Of a stretch of 64,000 bases of DNA, positions 6,955 through 11,463 are shown piece by piece. This stretch comes from Prosthecobacter debontii. GTDB taxonomy: Bacteria; Verrucomicrobiota; Verrucomicrobiia; Verrucomicrobiales; Akkermansiaceae. The notes beneath the pieces were generated by a model. It saw only the letters and a program-made list of their open reading frames with translations, was not told the DNA's origin and did no database searches. Positions within the stretch are counted from its first letter, which is position 1. Every line of letters starts with the position of its first letter. The translations under genes were made by a program, and so were the position numbers. Location: NCBI GenBank assembly GCA_945869465.1, contig CAMBPB010000002.1, positions 27,874-91,873 of the forward strand, in the 5' to 3' direction.

Positions 6955-9900
6955 TCAGGAGAAATACCGCACGCCTGCCGCGAATACCGGCTGGTGTTTT
7001 GCCCCGGGGATGTTCTTGGCGACGTGAGTGCCGGCGCGCTCGCTGTGGCCCATCTTGCCCAAGACCCGGCCGCAGGGGCTGGTGATGCCTTCGATGGCGG
7101 CGAGCGAACCGTTCGGATTGGTGGCGATGTCCATCGAGGGAACGCCGCTGGGATCGCAATACTGAGTGGCGATCTGGTGGTTTTTTGCAAGTTCGGCGAT
7201 CACTTCCCCGCTGGCTAGGAATTTTCCTTCGCCATGGGAAAGCGGAATGGTGTGGATGTCTCCGACGTTGCTGTTGGAAAGCCACGGAGACAGCGTGCTG
7301 ACGATCCGGGTGTTCGCGTAGCAGGAAATGTGGCGGCCGATGTCGTTGTGGACGAGGGTCGGGGCGTCCTCCGATGGATTGCGGATTTCGCCATAGGGCA
7401 CGAGGCCGGTTTTGATGAGAGCTTGGAAACCATTGCAAATGCCCAGGATCAGACCGTCGCGGTTTCTGAGCAGGTCCATGATGGCATCGGCCACACGCGG
7501 GCTGCGGATGATGGTGGCGATGAATTTGGCGGAACCGTCGGGCTCATCGCCGGCGCTGAATCCACCGGGAAACATCAGGATTTGCGAGTGGTGGATTTCC
7601 CGCGCCAGGGCGCCGAGGGATTCCTCGATGTGGCGTGCGGATAGATTGCGGAAGACCAGGATTTCAGCAGCGGCCCCGGCCTGGCGGAAGGCCTTGGCAG
7701 AATCGTATTCGGAGTTGGTGCCGGGGAAGGTGGGGATTAAGACCTTCGGTTTTGCGTGAGCAGTGGGCAGTGAGCGGTGAGCAGTGGAAGAGCTGAAGAA
7801 GGAGACATCCATGCTCTCAACTCTCCGCTCTGCGCTCTCCGCTCTTGTTGGATAGACGGGCTCAAGGGTGGCGGTCCAGGCGGTTTGGAGATCGGCTAGG
7901 GAATGGATTTCTCCGTTGAGCACGAGGGTGGGATCGGTGGTGGTGTGGCCGAGAGTTTGGGAGCTGAGGGATTCAGGAAGCGGCTCGCTGTGTTCGATGA
8001 GGAATGCGAAGTAGCGCTCGGTGAAGAGGGGTGTGGATGAAACGTCCTCGCTTCTTAGGCCGATGCCGTTGCCGAAGGCCATTTTGGCGAGGGCGGCGGC
8101 CAGCCCGCAGCGGCCGATGTGGTGGAGGGAGAGCAGTTTGCCTCCGACGTTGAGCTGGTGGAGTTGCTCCGAGGTTTGTTTGAGTTTCTCAAAATCGGGG
8201 AGATGATCGGCGTCGCGCGGGACTTCGACGAGGGAGACGGTGGAGCCGGGTTGCTTGAACTCCGGTGAGAGGGCGAGGCTGGCCTTGCCGGGGGCTAGGG
8301 CGAAGGAAACGAGGGTGGGGGGAACGTCGAGCTCGTTGAACGAGCCCGACATCGAGTCCTTGCCGCCGATGGCGGCCAGGCGCAGCGAGTGCTGGGCGTG
8401 AAAGGCACCTAACAATGCGGCGAAAGGCATGCCCCACCGGGTGGGATGATTGCCGAGCTTGGGAAAATACTCCTGCAGGGTCAGGCGGATGTCGCGGAGT
8501 CGGGCCCCGGCGGCAACGGCCTTGCAGACCGATTCGGTGACGGCGTAAACCGCGCCGTGAAACGGGGATTTTTCGGATAGAGAGGGATCGAAGCCCCAGC
8601 TCATGTAGGTGCAGACATCGGTGTCGCCTTCCAATAGCGGCAACTTGGCGACCATCGCGTCGGGTGGCGTGAGTTGGTTGTTGCCTCCGAAAGGCCACAG
8701 CACGGTGCCCGCGCCGACCGAGCCGTCGAAGATTCCGCCGAGGCCTTTTTGAGAGCAGATGTTGAGGGAAGACAAGTGCTCCGCGAGCGGTGATCGGTGA
8801 GCTGGGGATGAGAAGAGGGCCTGGCGGTGGGAAACCGCCGCCACGGGGGAGGGCGCGGGGAAATCGGCAGGACGTTGATAGATAACGGGATCGATGAACA
8901 GCAGAGTCTCGCCGTCCGCGGCCACAAGCACGTTTTCGTTGTGAAGTTCTTCCACGAAAAGGTCGAGTGATGGCAGATAGTAATCGTCGTTGCGGAAGCG
9001 GAAGGCTCCATATGCAGCGGCCATTTCCCGTTCGACCTGACTGCGGGTGGCTCCCATGGGTTGTCCCGAGATATCCTTCCGGGTTCTTACGGCTTGCTGG
9101 CTGACGACGAATGCGATCGCGCAATCATCCTCGGTCAGGCCTTCGATGGTGTAGGCGGTTTCGGGGAAGAGCAGACGATGGAGATGCAGCCGCTCAAGGT
9201 ATTGCAGCCAGTGGCCGTGATAGCTGCCGTTGTTGATCTTGCGGAAATGGCGGCCATCGGCAGTCGGGAATACCTTTTGTTCCGCGCCGCCGAGTTCACC
9301 GGCACGCTTCCACCGGGCGTCGAGTCCGGTGGAATCAAGCCACAGATTTTTCAGGCCGCGGAGTTCGCGTTCCTCGATGGAACGCAGGGCTCGTTCGAAA
9401 TCGAGGCGTCCTTGGCGGTCTCCTGGCAGCGGAGTGCCAGTTTTTTGGCCTGCTCGATGCACTCTTCGTAAGACATCGGCGATTGTTTCGCCAACGCTGC
9501 CAAGGCTTTCTCGGAACGTTGGCGATGCGCTTCGCTCAAGTAGGGTTGCGGTGTGTTCATGATTGGATGTTACGCTGGGTGTTAAGGTGAGGGAAGGCGG
9601 CGGGCAGGATGCCCCCGCCACGTGGATCTTGGCGGTTTGTTGCACGCCGTTGGTGTCGAGGAAGGCGCGGGAGAGATTGACGATGGTCTTGCCGCGCCAG
9701 GTCATCACGAGGCGGCCGGTGTCGGTCACCTTGGCGACTTGGACGCACTCCAGGTTTTCCAGGTCGGCCTCGCGGATGAAGTAGTCGATTTGCGAGGGAT
9801 CCACGCAGACGGCCATCCGTTCCTGGGATTCGGAGATGGCGAGTTCGGTGCCGTCGAGGCCATCGTATTTTTTCGGAACCGCATCGAGATTGATTTCGAG

Positions 9901-11463
9901 CGATGGCGCGATCTCGCCGATGGCCACGGCCACGCCGCCGGCCCCGAAGTCGTTGCAGATTTTGATTTTGCGGGTGAGTTCCGGGTTGCGGAAAAGGCGT
10001 TGGATTTTGCGCTCGGTGGGGGCGTCGCCCTTTTGGACTTCGGCGGAGTTTTCGAGAGCGGTGGCGGTGTGTTCCTTGGAAGAACCGGTGGCCCCGCCGA
10101 CGCCGTCGCGGCCGGTGCGGCCGCCGATGAGCAGGATGACATCGCCGGGCGCGGGAGTGCCGCGGAACACTTGGGAGCGCGGGGCGGCGGCGACGACCGC
10201 GCCGATTTCGAGGCGCTTGGCGACATAACCGGGGTGATAGATTTCCGCGACCTGTCCGGTGGCGAGGCCGATCTGGTTGCCATAGGACGAGTATCCGCGG
10301 GCGGCGACCTGGCAGATTTTTTTCTGCGGAAGCTTGCCGGGCAGTGTGGCGGCAAAGGGTGTCAGGGGATCGCCCGCGCCGGTGACCCGCATGGCCTGAT
10401 AGACATAGGAGCGCCCGGAAAGCGGATCGCGGATGCAGCCGCCGAGACAGGTAGCGGCGCCGCCGAAGGGCTCGATCTCGGTGGGGTGGTTGTGCGTCTC
10501 GTTTTTGAACATGACGAGCCACTCCTCGGTGGTGGGACTGTCGATTGAAGATTGAGGATTGAAGCTTGGAACATCCACGACGATGGAGGCGGCGTTGACT
10601 TCCTCGGAGACTTCGAGGTTGTCGAGCTCGCCGGAGGCCCGGAGTTCGCGCATGCCGATGAGGGCGATGTCCATCAGGGTCACGGGCTTGTCGCCGCGGC
10701 CTAACATATCTCGGGTTTCTAGATAGGTTTGCCAGGCGCGCTGGATGGGTTCGGTTCCCGCGCCGAAGGTGACGTCCGTGATTTGTGTTAGAAACGTGGT
10801 GTGGCGGCAGTGGTCGGACCAGTAAGTGTCCAACATCCGGATTTCGGTGATGCAGGGGCTGCGTTTTTCCTCGTCGCGGAAATAGTTTTGGCAGAAGGCC
10901 ACATCTTCGGGTGACATGGCGAGGGCGAGTTGGGTGCGGAGGGTGGCGGGATCCTGGGTGGTGAAGTGGGTGAGGATGGCGACATCCGGGGGAGAAGATG
11001 AGGACTGGCGGTTGGAAAACTCCGCCACTGGGACTTCGTGGGAATCCACGGCATTGATCACGTAGGCCTTGACGGTGGCGATTTCCGCGTTGGAAAGAGT
11101 GCCTTCGAGGATGATGACCTTTGCGCAATAGACGGCGGGGCGTTCCTTGCCGGTGAGAATTTGAACGCACTGGGCGGCGGAGTCGGCGCGTTGGTCGAAC
11201 TGGCCGGGCAGATACTCCACGGCGAAGGCGGTTTCGGTTTCTCCCAGGATCAGGGTGGGGAAAACATCGTCCACCTGGGGCTCCGAGAGGATGAGGGCGG
11301 TGGTCTGCGAAAACTCGGCTTCGGTTAGGCCAGCGATGCGATAGCGCTGGACCACCCGAACGCGGTGCAGGCCGGGCAAGCCAAGCGATTCACGGAGGTC
11401 GTGCAGCAGGTGGTGAGCCTGGGCATTGTGGGCGGCTTTTTTTTCAACGAAAATGCGGTTCAT
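6955..11463 (-). CDS. purL: Phosphoribosylformylglycinamidine synthase (single-chain large PurL) with internal in-frame insertions
   Basis: DTYWSDHCRH, KNETHNHPTEIEPFGG, SESQERM, GGFSAGDEPDGSAK, GICNGFQ, MGHSER. 1502 aa, longer than the ~1250 aa usual for this type. Confidence 0.96.
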   Translation of the reverse strand: MNRIFVEKKAAHNAQAHHLLHDLRESLGLPGLHRVRVVQRYRIAGLTEAEFSQTTALILSEPQVDDVFPTLILGETETAFAVEYLPGQFDQRADSAAQCVQILTGKERPAVYCAKVIILEGTLSNAEIATVKAYVINAVDSHEVPVAEFSNRQSSSSPPDVAILTHFTTQDPATLRTQLALAMSPEDVAFCQNYFRDEEKRSPCITEIRMLDTYWSDHCRHTTFLTQITDVTFGAGTEPIQRAWQTYLETRDMLGRGDKPVTLMDIALIGMRELRASGELDNLEVSEEVNAASIVVDVPSFNPQSSIDSPTTEEWLVMFKNETHNHPTEIEPFGGAATCLGGCIRDPLSGRSYVYQAMRVTGAGDPLTPFAATLPGKLPQKKICQVAARGYSSYGNQIGLATGQVAEIYHPGYVAKRLEIGAVVAAAPRSQVFRGTPAPGDVILLIGGRTGRDGVGGATGSSKEHTATALENSAEVQKGDAPTERKIQRLFRNPELTRKIKICNDFGAGGVAVAIGEIAPSLEINLDAVPKKYDGLDGTELAISESQERMAVCVDPSQIDYFIREADLENLECVQVAKVTDTGRLVMTWRGKTIVNLSRAFLDTNGVQQTAKIHVAGASCPPPSLTLTPSVTSNHEHTATLLERSASPTFRESLGSVGETIADVLRRVHRAGQKTGTPLPGDRQGRLDFERALRSIEERELRGLKNLWLDSTGLDARWKRAGELGGAEQKVFPTADGRHFRKINNGSYHGHWLQYLERLHLHRLLFPETAYTIEGLTEDDCAIAFVVSQQAVRTRKDISGQPMGATRSQVEREMAAAYGAFRFRNDDYYLPSLDLFVEELHNENVLVAADGETLLFIDPVIYQRPADFPAPSPVAAVSHRQALFSSPAHRSPLAEHLSSLNICSQKGLGGIFDGSVGAGTVLWPFGGNNQLTPPDAMVAKLPLLEGDTDVCTYMSWGFDPSLSEKSPFHGAVYAVTESVCKAVAAGARLRDIRLTLQEYFPKLGNHPTRWGMPFAALLGAFHAQHSLRLAAIGGKDSMSGSFNELDVPPTLVSFALAPGKASLALSPEFKQPGSTVSLVEVPRDADHLPDFEKLKQTSEQLHQLNVGGKLLSLHHIGRCGLAAALAKMAFGNGIGLRSEDVSSTPLFTERYFAFLIEHSEPLPESLSSQTLGHTTTDPTLVLNGEIHSLADLQTAWTATLEPVYPTRAESAERRVESMDVSFFSSSTAHRSLPTAHAKPKVLIPTFPGTNSEYDSAKAFRQAGAAAEILVFRNLSARHIEESLGALAREIHHSQILMFPGGFSAGDEPDGSAKFIATIIRSPRVADAIMDLLRNRDGLILGICNGFQALIKTGLVPYGEIRNPSEDAPTLVHNDIGRHISCYANTRIVSTLSPWLSNSNVGDIHTIPLSHGEGKFLASGEVIAELAKNHQIATQYCDPSGVPSMDIATNPNGSLAAIEGITSPCGRVLGKMGHSERAGTHVAKNIPGAKHQPVFAAGVRYFS
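7757..7846. repeat. Paired heptamer arrays forming an imperfect hairpin inside purL
   Basis: TGAGCAG TGGGCAG TGAGCGG TGAGCAG (7757-7784) and TGCTCTC AACTCTC CGCTCTG CGCTCTC CGCTCTT (7812-7846). GAGCRG units are complementary to YGCTC units. Confidence 0.85.
8822..8844 (-). repeat. GTGG-type REP-like hairpin
   Basis: Minus strand GTGGCGGCGGTTTCCCACCGCCA. Confidence 0.7.
9351..9560 (-). CDS. Small 69-aa ORF nested out of frame in the purL insertion
   Basis: MNTPQPYLSEAHRQRSEKALAALAKQSPMSYEECIEQAKKL...; ATG lies at the start of the kinase-like segment, one base out of the purL frame. Confidence 0.45.
   Translation of the reverse strand: MNTPQPYLSEAHRQRSEKALAALAKQSPMSYEECIEQAKKLALRCQETAKDASISNEPCVPSRNANSAA
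9599..9621 (-). repeat. GTGG-type REP-like hairpin
   Basis: Minus strand GTGGCGGGGGCATCCTGCCCGCC, read as VAGASCPP in PurL. Confidence 0.7.
10543..10563. repeat. Heptamer tandem repeat in purL
   Basis: GATTGAA GATTGAG GATTGAA; lies in PSFNPQSSIDSP just before WLVMFKNETH. Confidence 0.75.
11006..11028 (-). repeat. GTGG-type REP-like hairpin in purL
   Basis: Minus strand GTGGCGGAGTTTTCCAACCGCCA, nearly identical to the copy at 8822-8844. Confidence 0.7.

What the first reader, a model, noticed from the sequence alone, without database searches (positions are those of the whole stretch)
8784..9621. purL carries a REP-bracketed, in-frame kinase-like cassette of about 279 codons
Seen: PurL similarity stops at ...NGVQQTAKIH and resumes at LAEHLSSLNICSQKGL. 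The insert begins exactly at the GTGG of one REP-like hairpin (9621). It ends with a second, same-orientation REP-like hairpin (8822-8844) followed by three heptamers (8784-8804). The reading frame is preserved and the glutaminase motifs downstream (GICNG, GHSER) are intact. The insert has kinase-fold motifs: Gly loop LGGAEQKVF, RKIN, EELHNENVL and FIDP. Established knowledge: these match my recollection of the Kinase-PolyVal domain of phage/plasmid polyvalent proteins, and REP hairpins are substrates of RAYT HUH transposases. Inference: a foreign gene was carried between REP ends into a surface linker of a purine-synthesis enzyme. It could be an addiction-like passenger, a regulatory fusion, or an element removed at DNA or RNA level. 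The catalytic-loop Asp appears as Glu (EELH), so it may be a pseudokinase.
Basis: partly seen in the sequence, partly recalled or inferred. Interest (0 to 1): 0.82.

Follow-up and report, generated by a model that had tools for sequence, protein, structure and literature searches.

The report
Kinase module nested inside purL
An essential purine-synthesis gene of a Verrucomicrobia bacterium carries, in frame, a complete phage-type mini protein kinase and a hidden small gene in a second reading frame; related species have this block, lack it, keep a remnant of it or hold a different version, which is very unusual for a housekeeping gene.

Summary
purL (window 6955-11463, minus strand, 1502 aa) is a TIGR01857-type FGAM synthase. 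Its linker between the two synthetase halves holds an in-frame Kinase-PolyVal domain (PF18762, 88.8 bits). The flanking hairpins belong to dispersed REP-like repeat families.

The REP-vehicle reading is not supported. Orthologous cassettes often lack the hairpins, empty alleles carry them, and a DNA-level cassette swap has its crossovers in conserved coding sequence.

The cassette is old: it is also in Roseibacillus. It is polymorphic, with about 21 of 151 genomes of the genus occupied and at least 29 state changes on the PurL tree. It is lost by deletion, leaving remnants. It comes in three deeply divergent types that move between near-identical purL backbones by homologous recombination. The kinase is under purifying selection (dN/dS 0.12-0.27) and its active site is almost always intact. 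This copy uniquely has Glu for the catalytic Asp.

The first ~70 codons also encode, in the +1 frame, a conserved 55-70-aa two-helix protein. It has stand-alone homologues and overlaps free-standing Bacteroidota kinases in the same way. Three of four kinase-less remnants keep it intact.

LigA of the same genome carries a second, distinct Kinase-PolyVal insert. The function is unknown. My best guess is a conflict or toxin-antitoxin-like two-gene module nested in essential genes.

The parts
6955..11463 (-). purL, a fused TIGR01857-type FGAM synthase of 1502 aa that hosts the cassette
   Evidence: ORF. TIGR01857 scores 1642 bits in two stretches. AIRS_C, FGAR-AT_linker and GATase_5 are found.
8776..9621 (-). 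Extra segment between H614 and L897 (282 aa), made of linker plus cassette. The block inserted relative to an empty allele is 8845-9621 (259 codons).
   Evidence: Alignment with 20 relatives and with 186 PurLs: empty alleles have 18-22 aa here, occupied ones 250-305.
9596..9621 (-). REP-like hairpin, family A (GTGGCGGGGGCATCCTGCCCGCCGCC), read in frame as VAGASCPPP
   Evidence: Fold. There are 37 genomic copies at <=5 mismatches against 3 for the control. The same unit occurs in empty alleles of relatives.
9351..9560 (-). Overprinted +1-frame small ORF of 69 codons plus TGA; its ATG lies inside the invariant main-frame His-Glu (CATGAA). It encodes a predicted two-helix protein of an unnamed family.
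   Evidence: ATG-started and open in 24 of 24 cassettes. The profile search finds 34 hits, including stand-alone 52-66-aa proteins. It lies in the +1 frame over free-standing kinase genes in 37 of 40 loci. It is kept in kinase-less remnants. AF2 model.
8875..9348 (-). Kinase-PolyVal domain core (PurL aa 706-863)
   Evidence: PF18762. The AF2 model has pLDDT 85-94 over the core. All top Foldseek hits are protein kinases. There are 60 invariant columns among 16 sequences. dN/dS is 0.12-0.27.
8947..8949 (-). Codon of E839, at the HRD-like catalytic Asp position; Asp in 61 of 65 homologues
8818..8844 (-). REP-like hairpin, family B (GTGGCGGCGGTTTCCCACCGCCAGGCC), read as VAAVSHRQA. It corresponds to the start of the native linker of empty alleles.
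   Evidence: 22 copies against 2 for the control. Empty alleles read 'VAAVSNRQALF...'.
8784..8804 (-). Degenerate remnant of a heptamer microsatellite (CTCACCG ATCACCG CTCGCGG) in the 3' part of the linker
   Evidence: Sequence. TRF finds no array. Clear arrays lie at the same place in relatives L045, L049 and L059.
11002..11028 (-). A third REP-like unit (family B) in frame in the N-terminal linker of PurL (VAEFSNRQS)
   Evidence: (C2:38875).

Best explanation
SHOWN
- The PurL inter-half linker holds an in-frame copy of a two-gene module.
- One gene is a minimal protein kinase of the Kinase-PolyVal family, translated as part of PurL and flanked by disordered tethers.
- The other is a 55-70-aa two-helix protein written in the +1 frame over the first ~70 codons of the cassette.
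- The same 'small ORF overlapping the kinase 5' end in +1' layout is found in free-standing genes of Bacteroidota and Verrucomicrobiota.
- The nested copy is old: it is present in Roseibacillus and other genera.
- It is dispensable for PurL: many close relatives lack it, and remnants show deletion.
- It exists as at least three deeply divergent types that are exchanged between near-identical purL backbones by homologous recombination.
- Both the kinase and the small ORF are under purifying selection.
- A distinct Kinase-PolyVal subfamily is nested in LigA of the same genome, and a relative of that subfamily sits at a second PurL loop in one relative.
- The REP-like hairpins and heptamer repeats are real, but they are separate colonisers of the permissive linker DNA. 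Where they flank the cassette as direct repeats they may promote its deletion.

INFERRED
- The module is a conflict-type or toxin-antitoxin-like pair: a kinase effector plus a small antagonist or regulator.
- Being in frame inside essential, constitutively expressed genes, the module is expressed, and only frame-preserving deletions can remove it.
- PurL keeps working with the kinase displayed on tethers.
- The small protein is made by internal initiation at an AT-rich site without a Shine-Dalgarno sequence.
- In this window the catalytic Asp is Glu, so this copy may be attenuated.
For: Architecture and family.

Polymorphism and age:
-.
- In one search, 21 of 151 genomes of the genus have the domain in PurL-sized frames.
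- In one search, 63 protein clusters have it, including Roseibacillus ishigakijimensis.
- at least 29 state changes among 167 PurLs.
- remnants sit as sisters of occupied alleles.

Exchange:
- Insert and flank trees conflict at well-supported nodes, with patristic r = 0.30.
- P0038 and P0026 have flanks 95-100% identical but inserts 35-60% identical.
- At DNA level the P0038 insert is 93-100% identical to that of P0028, whose flanks are 83-92% identical. The crossovers lie in the conserved 'LLERS' block and in 'LNICSQ'.
- Insert dS is well below flank dS in several pairs.

Selection on the kinase:
- dN/dS is 0.12-0.27.
- G726, E728, K742, Q789, E843 and N844 are present in 65 of 65, and D858 in 64 of 64.

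Small ORF:
-.
- Homologues.
- It is in the +1 frame relative to the kinase in 37 of 40 free-standing loci. Amino-acid identity there is 0.46 in its frame against 0.27 in the kinase frame.
- One stand-alone copy has no kinase nearby.
- It is intact in 3 of 4 kinase-less remnants, with alt-frame identity 0.42-0.66 against main-frame 0.29-0.38.
- In P0159 the main-frame His-Glu is lost but the ATG is kept.

LigA. Second PurL site.
Against: - No expression, phosphorylation or toxicity data exist.
- There is no Shine-Dalgarno sequence before the small ORF.
- The openness of the small ORF alone is not surprising, given the main-frame protein: P is about 0.42 per sequence by synonymous resampling.
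- The small protein has no recognisable antitoxin or DNA-binding domain.
- Neither protein matches PADLOC or PHROGs models.
- Most alleles lack both genes, so any 'addiction' is weak.
- Neighbourhoods of free-standing modules in Bacteroidota look like ordinary housekeeping regions.
- AF2 also predicts confident helices for the main-frame translation of the overlapped stretch, so both frames may matter.
- The recombination mechanism was resolved at DNA level in one case only.
- The sampled proteins are biased: the occupied set was retrieved by insert similarity, the empty set by N-terminal similarity.
Confidence: 0.6

Rival explanations
1. REP/RAYT-mobilised cargo. Two same-orientation REP hairpins act like IS200/IS605-type ends, and a Y1 HUH transposase excises and inserts the kinase cassette as single-stranded DNA next to REP hairpins in the purL linker.
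For: - Same-orientation hairpins bracket the insert in this window.
- Both hairpins belong to dispersed repeat families.
- The genome has 20 Y1_Tnp matches, two of them near full length.
- In several relatives the same unit flanks the cassette on both sides: P0049, P0039, P0042, G023.
- Empty alleles look like the product of recombination between such repeats.
Against: - Within the closest insert clade (type I), P0004, P0005 and P0006 have no REP unit at either end, and neither does Roseibacillus (P0008).
- In this window the two units belong to different families.
- REP units also fill empty alleles and a third purL linker, and they lie inside other long ORFs.
- The resolved swap has its crossovers in conserved coding DNA.
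- The LigA insert and the free-standing modules need no REPs.
Confidence: 0.1
2. Host-beneficial regulatory domain. The kinase is simply a lineage-specific accessory domain of PurL (and of LigA). It senses or regulates nucleotide metabolism, for example by phosphorylating PurL or partner enzymes. It is inherited vertically and has been lost repeatedly where it is not needed, and the small ORF is a by-product.
For: - Purifying selection and an intact active site.
- An old origin, with many losses and remnants.
- Both hosts are nucleotide-using enzymes.
- There are no hits to defence-system models.
Against: - Cassette types 35-60% identical sit in backbones 95-100% identical, and insert dS is well below flank dS. 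This shows horizontal exchange rather than plain vertical descent.
- The domain family is otherwise typical of phage and conjugative-element polyvalent proteins.
- The small ORF is conserved on its own. It has stand-alone homologues, and remnants that lost the kinase keep it.
- Presence is patchy even between sister species.
Confidence: 0.22
3. Neutral or selfish domain parasite. The cassette is a functionless passenger tolerated in a permissive loop, and recombination alone spreads it.
For: - It is dispensable, since many alleles are empty.
- It lies in disordered linkers.
- Remnants decay.
Against: A neutral insert would not keep 60 invariant columns, dN/dS of 0.12-0.27 and a complete active site over inter-genus distances.
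Confidence: 0.06
4. Assembly chimera, or an element removed before the mature protein is made (an intein or an intron).
For: None, beyond the abrupt boundaries of the insert.
Against: - The same architecture appears in 63 protein clusters from independent assemblies, including an isolate genome.
- There is no Hint or intein domain and no intron or Rfam match.
- The reading frame is continuous in all copies.
Confidence: 0.02

Closest known systems
Kinase-PolyVal domain (Pfam PF18762) of phage and conjugative-element polyvalent proteins, and its stand-alone Bacteroidetes versions (Iyer, Burroughs, Anand, de Souza and Aravind 2017, PMC5512222)
   Same: It is the same domain family. The HMM match is well above threshold, the C-terminal kinase lobe is missing, and the Glu before strand 2 and the conserved Gln are present. 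Its phyletic range, Verrucomicrobia and Bacteroidetes, is also the same.
   Different: Here the domain is not in a polyvalent protein and is not stand-alone. It is nested in frame inside an essential biosynthetic enzyme, and in LigA. It is polymorphic and is exchanged by recombination. It also carries an overprinted +1 small ORF. The passages I read in that paper (those mentioning 'kinase') mention neither feature.
Lineage-specific insertional domains of housekeeping enzymes, for example the BEAN and HABAS insertions in RNA polymerase (PMC11515920, title and abstract only)
   Same: A folded domain is inserted in a surface loop or linker of a conserved enzyme, and the host fold stays intact.
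   Different: Those insertions are fixed markers of large clades. This one varies between sister species and comes in divergent, swappable types. It belongs to a conflict-associated family and contains a second gene.
Inteins (from my own knowledge)
   Same: They are in-frame insertions in essential, conserved genes, with patchy distribution and horizontal spread.
   Different: This insert has no Hint splicing domain, no homing endonuclease and no splice-junction residues. It sits in a variable linker rather than a conserved active-site motif, and it presumably stays in the mature protein.
Kinase toxin-antitoxin pairs such as HipBA, and overprinted gene pairs such as lambda Rz/Rz1 (from my own knowledge)
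   Same: A small partner gene is coupled to, and here overlaps, a kinase gene. The partner survives when the kinase is lost, like an orphan antitoxin.
   Different: The kinase is not a member of the HipA family. The small protein has no HTH or RHH domain. The overlap covers the whole small gene. Toxicity and neutralisation are untested.
Rickettsia palindromic elements and REP/BIME elements with RAYT transposases (from my own knowledge)
   Same: They are short palindromic repeats in dispersed families, with Y1 transposase genes in the genome. Like Rickettsia palindromic elements, these units are read through in frame inside genes.
   Different: This comparison applies only to the flanking hairpins, not to the kinase cassette. 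Copy numbers are modest, and a link to a specific RAYT was not tested.

Membership tests
Kinase-PolyVal (PF18762) | Match to the family HMM above the gathering threshold | tested here: met
   The insert alone scores 88.8 bits and the domain within PurL 84.6 bits, against a cut-off of 27.
Kinase-PolyVal (PF18762) | Protein-kinase fold that lacks the whole C-terminal subdomain (Iyer et al. 2017) | tested here: met
   The AF2 core spans about residues 100-260 of the insert at pLDDT 85-94. Every one of the 50 listed Foldseek hits is a protein-kinase or pseudokinase domain. The hits align over 142-192 columns of chains 241-338 residues long, with E values of 6e-3 or weaker and TM about 0.3.
Kinase-PolyVal (PF18762) | [quoted passage not shown] | tested here: met
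   E728 (in the GAE motif) and Q789 are present in 65 of 65 occupied PurLs. The features are as described in PMC5512222.
Kinase-PolyVal (PF18762) | Intact ATP-binding and phosphotransfer residues | tested here: inconclusive
   K742, E843, N844 and D858 are present. The HRD-like Asp is Glu in this copy (E839) and Asp in 61 of 65 homologues. Activity is untested.
Kinase-PolyVal (PF18762) | Context: polyvalent proteins of phages or conjugative elements, or stand-alone genes | tested here: not met
   The domain is nested inside PurL. This is a difference of context, not of domain membership.
REP/RAYT mobile unit (REPtron-like or IS200/IS605-like) | The flanking hairpins are members of a dispersed palindromic repeat family | tested here: met
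   The two families have 37 and 22 copies, against 3 and 2 for the controls.
REP/RAYT mobile unit (REPtron-like or IS200/IS605-like) | A Y1 HUH transposase is encoded in the genome | tested here: inconclusive
   There are 20 PF01797 matches, two of them near full length. RAYT and IS200 TnpA were not told apart, and a REP association was not tested.
REP/RAYT mobile unit (REPtron-like or IS200/IS605-like) | The hairpins are constant ends of the mobile unit in all copies | tested here: not met
   Many orthologous cassettes lack one or both hairpins, and empty alleles carry them. The swap crossovers are not at hairpins.
Intein | A Hint splicing domain and conserved splice-junction residues | tested here: not met
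   There is no Hint or intein Pfam hit. The insert starts with Val-Ala-Gly and is followed by Leu.
Type II toxin-antitoxin pair (kinase toxin type) | A small partner gene is coupled to the toxin gene and is retained when the toxin is lost | tested here: met
   The small ORF overlaps the kinase 5' end in 37 of 40 free-standing loci. It is intact in 3 of 4 kinase-less remnants and is the better-conserved frame there.
Type II toxin-antitoxin pair (kinase toxin type) | The antitoxin has a DNA-binding or otherwise recognisable antitoxin fold | tested here: not met
   No Pfam hit passes a threshold. One homologue scores 20.7 bits against RelB-like, below the cut-off of 27. AF2 gives a plain two-helix hairpin.
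Type II toxin-antitoxin pair (kinase toxin type) | The kinase is toxic and the partner neutralises it | not testable with these tools
   This needs expression tests in a laboratory strain.
FGAM synthase, fused type (TIGR01857) | Full-length match above the equivalog cut-off, with the glutaminase domain | tested here: met
   The match scores 1642 bits against a cut-off of 1057. GATase_5 has E = 2e-80.

The most novel reading that the evidence does not exclude
The cassette belongs to an undescribed class of selfish or conflict elements. It would be a kinase toxin with an overprinted antidote gene that lives in frame inside essential housekeeping genes (PurL, LigA). It would act like an intein without splicing: the host gene guarantees its expression and shields it from all but frame-preserving deletions, while homologous recombination spreads and swaps divergent alleles, perhaps under phage-driven balancing selection. 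The +1 'antidote in the linker' layout may be inherited from phage polyvalent-protein genes.
Probability: 0.25. Interest if true: 0.9.

Novelty: new variant of a known kind. Interest (0 to 1): 0.8.

Why it matters
Essential metabolic and replication enzymes are usually the most conservative genes in a genome. Here two of them, PurL and LigA, host a conflict-type kinase. In purL the block varies between sister species, comes in swappable versions and hides a second gene in another reading frame.

If the pair is a toxin-antidote or defence module, this would be a new way for such modules to persist. It would link phage polyvalent proteins to host housekeeping genes.

The finding also matters for annotation. 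These proteins are filed only as PurL or PurQ, and the small gene is missed. It is testable as well, because a cultured carrier exists (Roseibacillus ishigakijimensis KCTC 12986).

Tried and rejected
- **Internal sigma-70 promoter.** The near-invariant TTGACA lies about 20 nt before the small ORF's ATG. The scan found no promoter-like site, this window reads TTAACA, and the spacing does not fit.
- **Openness of the +1 ORF as proof of coding.** Synonymous resampling keeps the frame open in about 42% of trials. I therefore relied on homologues, frame-specific conservation and the remnants.
- **Rfam families in 8500-9900.** None at E <= 1.
- **PADLOC and PHROGs models** for the insert and the small protein. 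None.
- **Pfam for the small protein.** Only sub-threshold noise.
- **Tandem Repeats Finder on the insert region.** No array.
- **Pfam on the second-site insert of G021.** No hit. Its kinase nature rests on BLASTP at 1e-16 to the LigA-type insert.
- **BLASTP between the PurL insert and the LigA insert of this genome.** No significant similarity, so they are separate subfamilies and not copies of one cassette.
- **Foldseek against the PDB.** Hits are only weak (E >= 6e-3, TM about 0.3), though all are kinases.
- **Structure of the whole PurL with the insert.** Not attempted, because 1502 aa exceeds the 1200-aa limit.
- **Neighbourhoods of free-standing Bacteroidota modules.** ORFs were listed only and not searched against families. 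By eye they look like varied housekeeping genes with no consistent partner.
Full report
**The observation**

purL is the ORF 6955..11463 on the minus strand, 1502 aa. It is a fused FGAM synthase. TIGR01857 scores 1642 bits but in two stretches, the first ending at aa 618 and model position 616 of 1239. Pfam finds FGAR-AT_linker, AIRS_C (aa 439-589), GATase_5 (aa 1238-1501) and, between them, PF18762 Kinase-PolyVal at aa 706-863. That match scores 84.6 bits in PurL and 88.8 bits for the insert alone, against a cut-off of 27.

In an alignment with 20 relatives, PurL similarity stops after ...NGVQQTAKIH and resumes at LSSLNICSQKGL. Empty alleles have 18-22 residues there and this one has 282. Against an empty allele that reads 'VAAVSNRQALF...', the inserted block is window 8845-9621, which is 259 codons in frame.

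They belong to dispersed repeat families: 37 and 22 copies at <=5 mismatches in the 3.59-Mb genome, against 3 and 2 for reversed-pattern controls.

The 'heptamers' at 8784-8804 are too degenerate to be called by TRF. They correspond to clear (ACCGATC)n and (CTCACTG)n arrays at the same place in relatives.

An assembly artefact is excluded. The same architecture occurs in 63 protein clusters from independent assemblies, one of them the isolate Roseibacillus ishigakijimensis KCTC 12986.

**The kinase**

Sixteen inserts align with 60 invariant columns. An AF2 model built on that alignment has pLDDT 85-94 over residues ~40-263 and disordered ends at 1-38 and 264-283. All top Foldseek hits in the PDB are protein kinases, although weakly (best E 5.7e-3, TM ~0.3). 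That fits a kinase lacking the C-lobe.

The features Iyer et al. give for this family are present: loss of the C-terminal subdomain, a Glu before strand 2 and a conserved Gln (PMC5512222). Over 65 occupied PurLs, G726, E728, K742, Q789, E843 and N844 are invariant and D858 is present in 64 of 64. The HRD-like Asp is present in 61 of 65, and this window alone has Glu (E839).

dN/dS of the insert core is 0.12-0.27. That is similar to the C-terminal half of PurL (0.13-0.24), so the domain is maintained by selection.

**Distribution**

Among 40 relatives, only genomes of the same genus have the insert. Most same-genus PurLs lack it.

In 151 genomes of the genus, PF18762 lies in PurL-sized frames in 21. 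On a tree of the PurL flanks (167 near-complete sequences: 54 occupied, 7 remnants, 106 empty) the state changes at least 29 times. An outlying clade that includes Roseibacillus is almost wholly occupied.

Remnants sit next to occupied sisters: P0099 beside P0038, G039 beside P0056, P0086 beside P0054, and P0063 beside P0020. Deletion is therefore documented. The insert is old and has been lost many times.

**Exchange between backbones**

The insert tree and the flank tree conflict at well-supported nodes, and the patristic correlation is only 0.30. There are at least three insert types, 35-60% identical to each other.

Flank sisters carry different types. P0038 and P0026 have flanks 95-100% identical and inserts 35-60% identical, and P0047 and P0021 behave likewise. 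In both pairs the identity switches exactly at the insert borders.

At DNA level, P0038 matches P0026 at 90-98% outside the insert and 51-70% inside. It matches P0028 at 83-92% outside and 93-100% inside. The 5' crossover lies within the conserved CTACTTGAACGAAGC ('LLERS') block of the cassette, and the 3' crossover lies in the conserved LNICSQ region of purL. This is homologous recombination, not transposition.

In several pairs, insert dS is far below flank dS (for example 0.14 against 1.72 and 0.56), which points to recent spread of cassettes.

**The REP question**

The linker of empty alleles is hypervariable and is largely made of these hairpin units, read through in frame (VAGASCPSP, VAAVSNRQA, TERGLQSA and others). 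Compensatory stem changes are visible between alleles.

Occupied alleles show every arrangement:
- the same unit on both sides (P0049, P0039, P0042, G023);
- different units on each side (this window, P0002, P0014);
- no unit at all (P0004-6, P0008).

A third unit lies in another purL linker at 11002-11028. Other copies lie inside long ORFs elsewhere in the genome. The genome does encode Y1 transposases, with 20 PF01797 matches.

I conclude that the hairpins colonise permissive linker DNA independently of the cassette. Where they flank the cassette as direct repeats they could promote its precise deletion, but they are not its ends.

**A hidden second gene**

The invariant main-frame His-Glu (CATGAA) near the start of the cassette contains an ATG. 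That ATG opens a +1-frame ORF of 69 codons (window 9560-9354, stop at 9353-9351).

The ORF is ATG-started and 65-74 codons long in 24 of 24 distinct cassettes. Openness alone is weak evidence, since synonymous resampling gives P of about 0.42. The stronger evidence is as follows.

- **Composition.** Main-frame GC3 falls to 0.42-0.50 here against 0.76-0.78 in the flanks. Main-frame position 1, which is position 3 of the +1 frame, is 0.68-0.78.
- **Diversity by codon position.** Main-frame third-position diversity is 0.33-0.43 here against 0.5-0.65 in the kinase core.
- **Conservation by frame.** The +1 peptide is as conserved as the main frame (0.50 against 0.51). The +2 frame is 0.37 and has stops.
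- **Homologues.** A profile of the peptides finds 34 proteins among 1.84 billion representatives. About 25 of them are stand-alone 52-66-aa proteins from other, lower-GC organisms, with a clear shared motif (YLNEYHRK...QPxMSxEECIEQxKRL). One of them has no kinase nearby.
- **Free-standing loci.** In free-standing kinase loci, mostly from Bacteroidota, the small ORF lies in the +1 frame over the kinase 5' end in 37 of 40. Its frame is 46% conserved against 27% for the kinase frame over the same bases, and the kinase frame stays open across it in 36 of 40.
- **Remnants.** Three of four kinase-less remnants (G018, P0086, P0159) keep an intact ATG-started small ORF scoring 64-66 bits. Among the remnants and this window the +1 frame is 42-66% identical and the main frame 29-38%. 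In P0159 the main-frame His-Glu is gone but the ATG remains.

AF2 predicts a two-helix hairpin for the small protein. It matches no Pfam, PADLOC or PHROG family. The ~30 nt before the ATG are AT-rich (~40% GC in a 61% GC genome) and lack a Shine-Dalgarno sequence. Whether the ORF is translated is untested.

**Other hosts of the family**

The only other PF18762 match in this genome lies inside LigA (G000:C12:23052-26012). It scores 41.3 bits at aa 265-423 and splits the adenylation domain.

That insert is present in 14-15 of 24 same-genus genomes. Shorter partial forms occur in two (G013, G019). It is absent from all 16 genomes of other families in the order.

It is a different subfamily. BLASTP finds no similarity to the PurL insert, and no small ORF was detected in it.

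In G021, PurL carries a ~240-aa insert at a different loop (near aa 305). That insert is related to the LigA type (BLASTP 1e-16), although it falls below Pfam detection.

**Interpretation**

The descriptive part is solid. A kinase plus small-ORF module is nested in frame in PurL. It is old, dispensable, selected, polymorphic and recombining.

The function is inferred. Three things suggest a conflict-type or toxin-antidote-like pair:
- the family's association with phage and conjugative-element polyvalent proteins;
- the coupling to a small partner gene;
- the survival of that partner after the kinase is lost.

Being nested in essential genes would secure the pair's expression and its persistence.

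A host-beneficial regulatory domain remains a serious rival. The REP/RAYT vehicle is unlikely, and chimera, intein or intron explanations are excluded.

**Literature and earlier notes**

I found no mention of the PurL or LigA nesting, or of the small ORF, in the held literature. Kinase-PolyVal appears in one other paper. The passages of the founding paper that mention 'kinase' describe only polyvalent and stand-alone versions.

Earlier notes of this scan on other genomes describe a swappable PurL kinase (e1-4216269) and the LigA insert (e1-4284403). I reached the same points independently and tested them here. A further note on +1 small genes in the linkers of a phage polyvalent-protein gene (e1-3489607) is an untested lead for the origin of the layout.

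Noticed in passing
outside the window: G000 contig C12:23052-26012 (-), locus L002: The NAD-dependent DNA ligase LigA of the same genome carries a distinct Kinase-PolyVal domain (41.3 bits, aa 265-423) inside its adenylation domain. The insert is present in about 60% of same-genus genomes and absent from other families of the order. Two genomes (G013, G019) have shorter partial forms.
   Followed up: partly
L052 (G021:C24:24000-29200), PurL aa ~305 loop: One relative has a ~240-aa kinase-like insert at a second PurL site. The insert is related to the LigA-type kinase (BLASTP 1e-16) and has no Pfam hit. Its linker at the usual site is empty.
   Followed up: partly
window 11002-11028 (-), and genome-wide (for example C74:4769 and 5267, C47:18997, C14:12380): REP-like hairpin units of two families lie in frame inside purL and apparently inside other long ORFs. 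This resembles the Rickettsia palindromic elements. Spurious long frames in a 61% GC genome were not excluded.
   Followed up: partly
window ~10528-10566 (-) (PurL aa 300-312), and the same loop in relatives: This loop is filled in relatives by translated heptamer microsatellites, for example (AATCCAC)n read as IHNPQSS. They vary in length between species. A further variable insert lies near aa 1366 in G008, G010 and G019.
   Followed up: no
L008 (G021:C230) and L010 (G006:C304): Free-standing kinases of ~320 aa, 35-38% identical to the PurL insert, lie next to ORFs that by eye resemble restriction-modification, helicase and HNH-nuclease genes. This hints at defence-island contexts within the genus. 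The neighbours were not searched against families.
   Followed up: no
G000 genome: C51:2440-2775, C47:2588-2929 and 18 further places: There are twenty Y1_Tnp (IS200/IS605 or RAYT-like) matches. Many cover only the N-terminal half of the domain, within ~400-aa frames. This is a possibly expanded family that was not characterised.
   Followed up: no
relatives G025-G040: Most other families of the order have a split PurL of ~800 aa (six genomes matched this query at E 1e-31 to 1e-38; nine gave no match at E <= 1e-30). This genus and G039 have the fused TIGR01857 type, so purL itself may have been acquired horizontally.
   Followed up: no
L120-L175, 3' end of the small ORF in free-standing Bacteroidota loci: The small ORF ends in Lys-rich, A-rich tracts (…KNKKQR), and the kinase frame is -1 relative to it and open across it in 36 of 40 loci. 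A programmed -1 frameshift that joins the two frames is conceivable.
   Followed up: no
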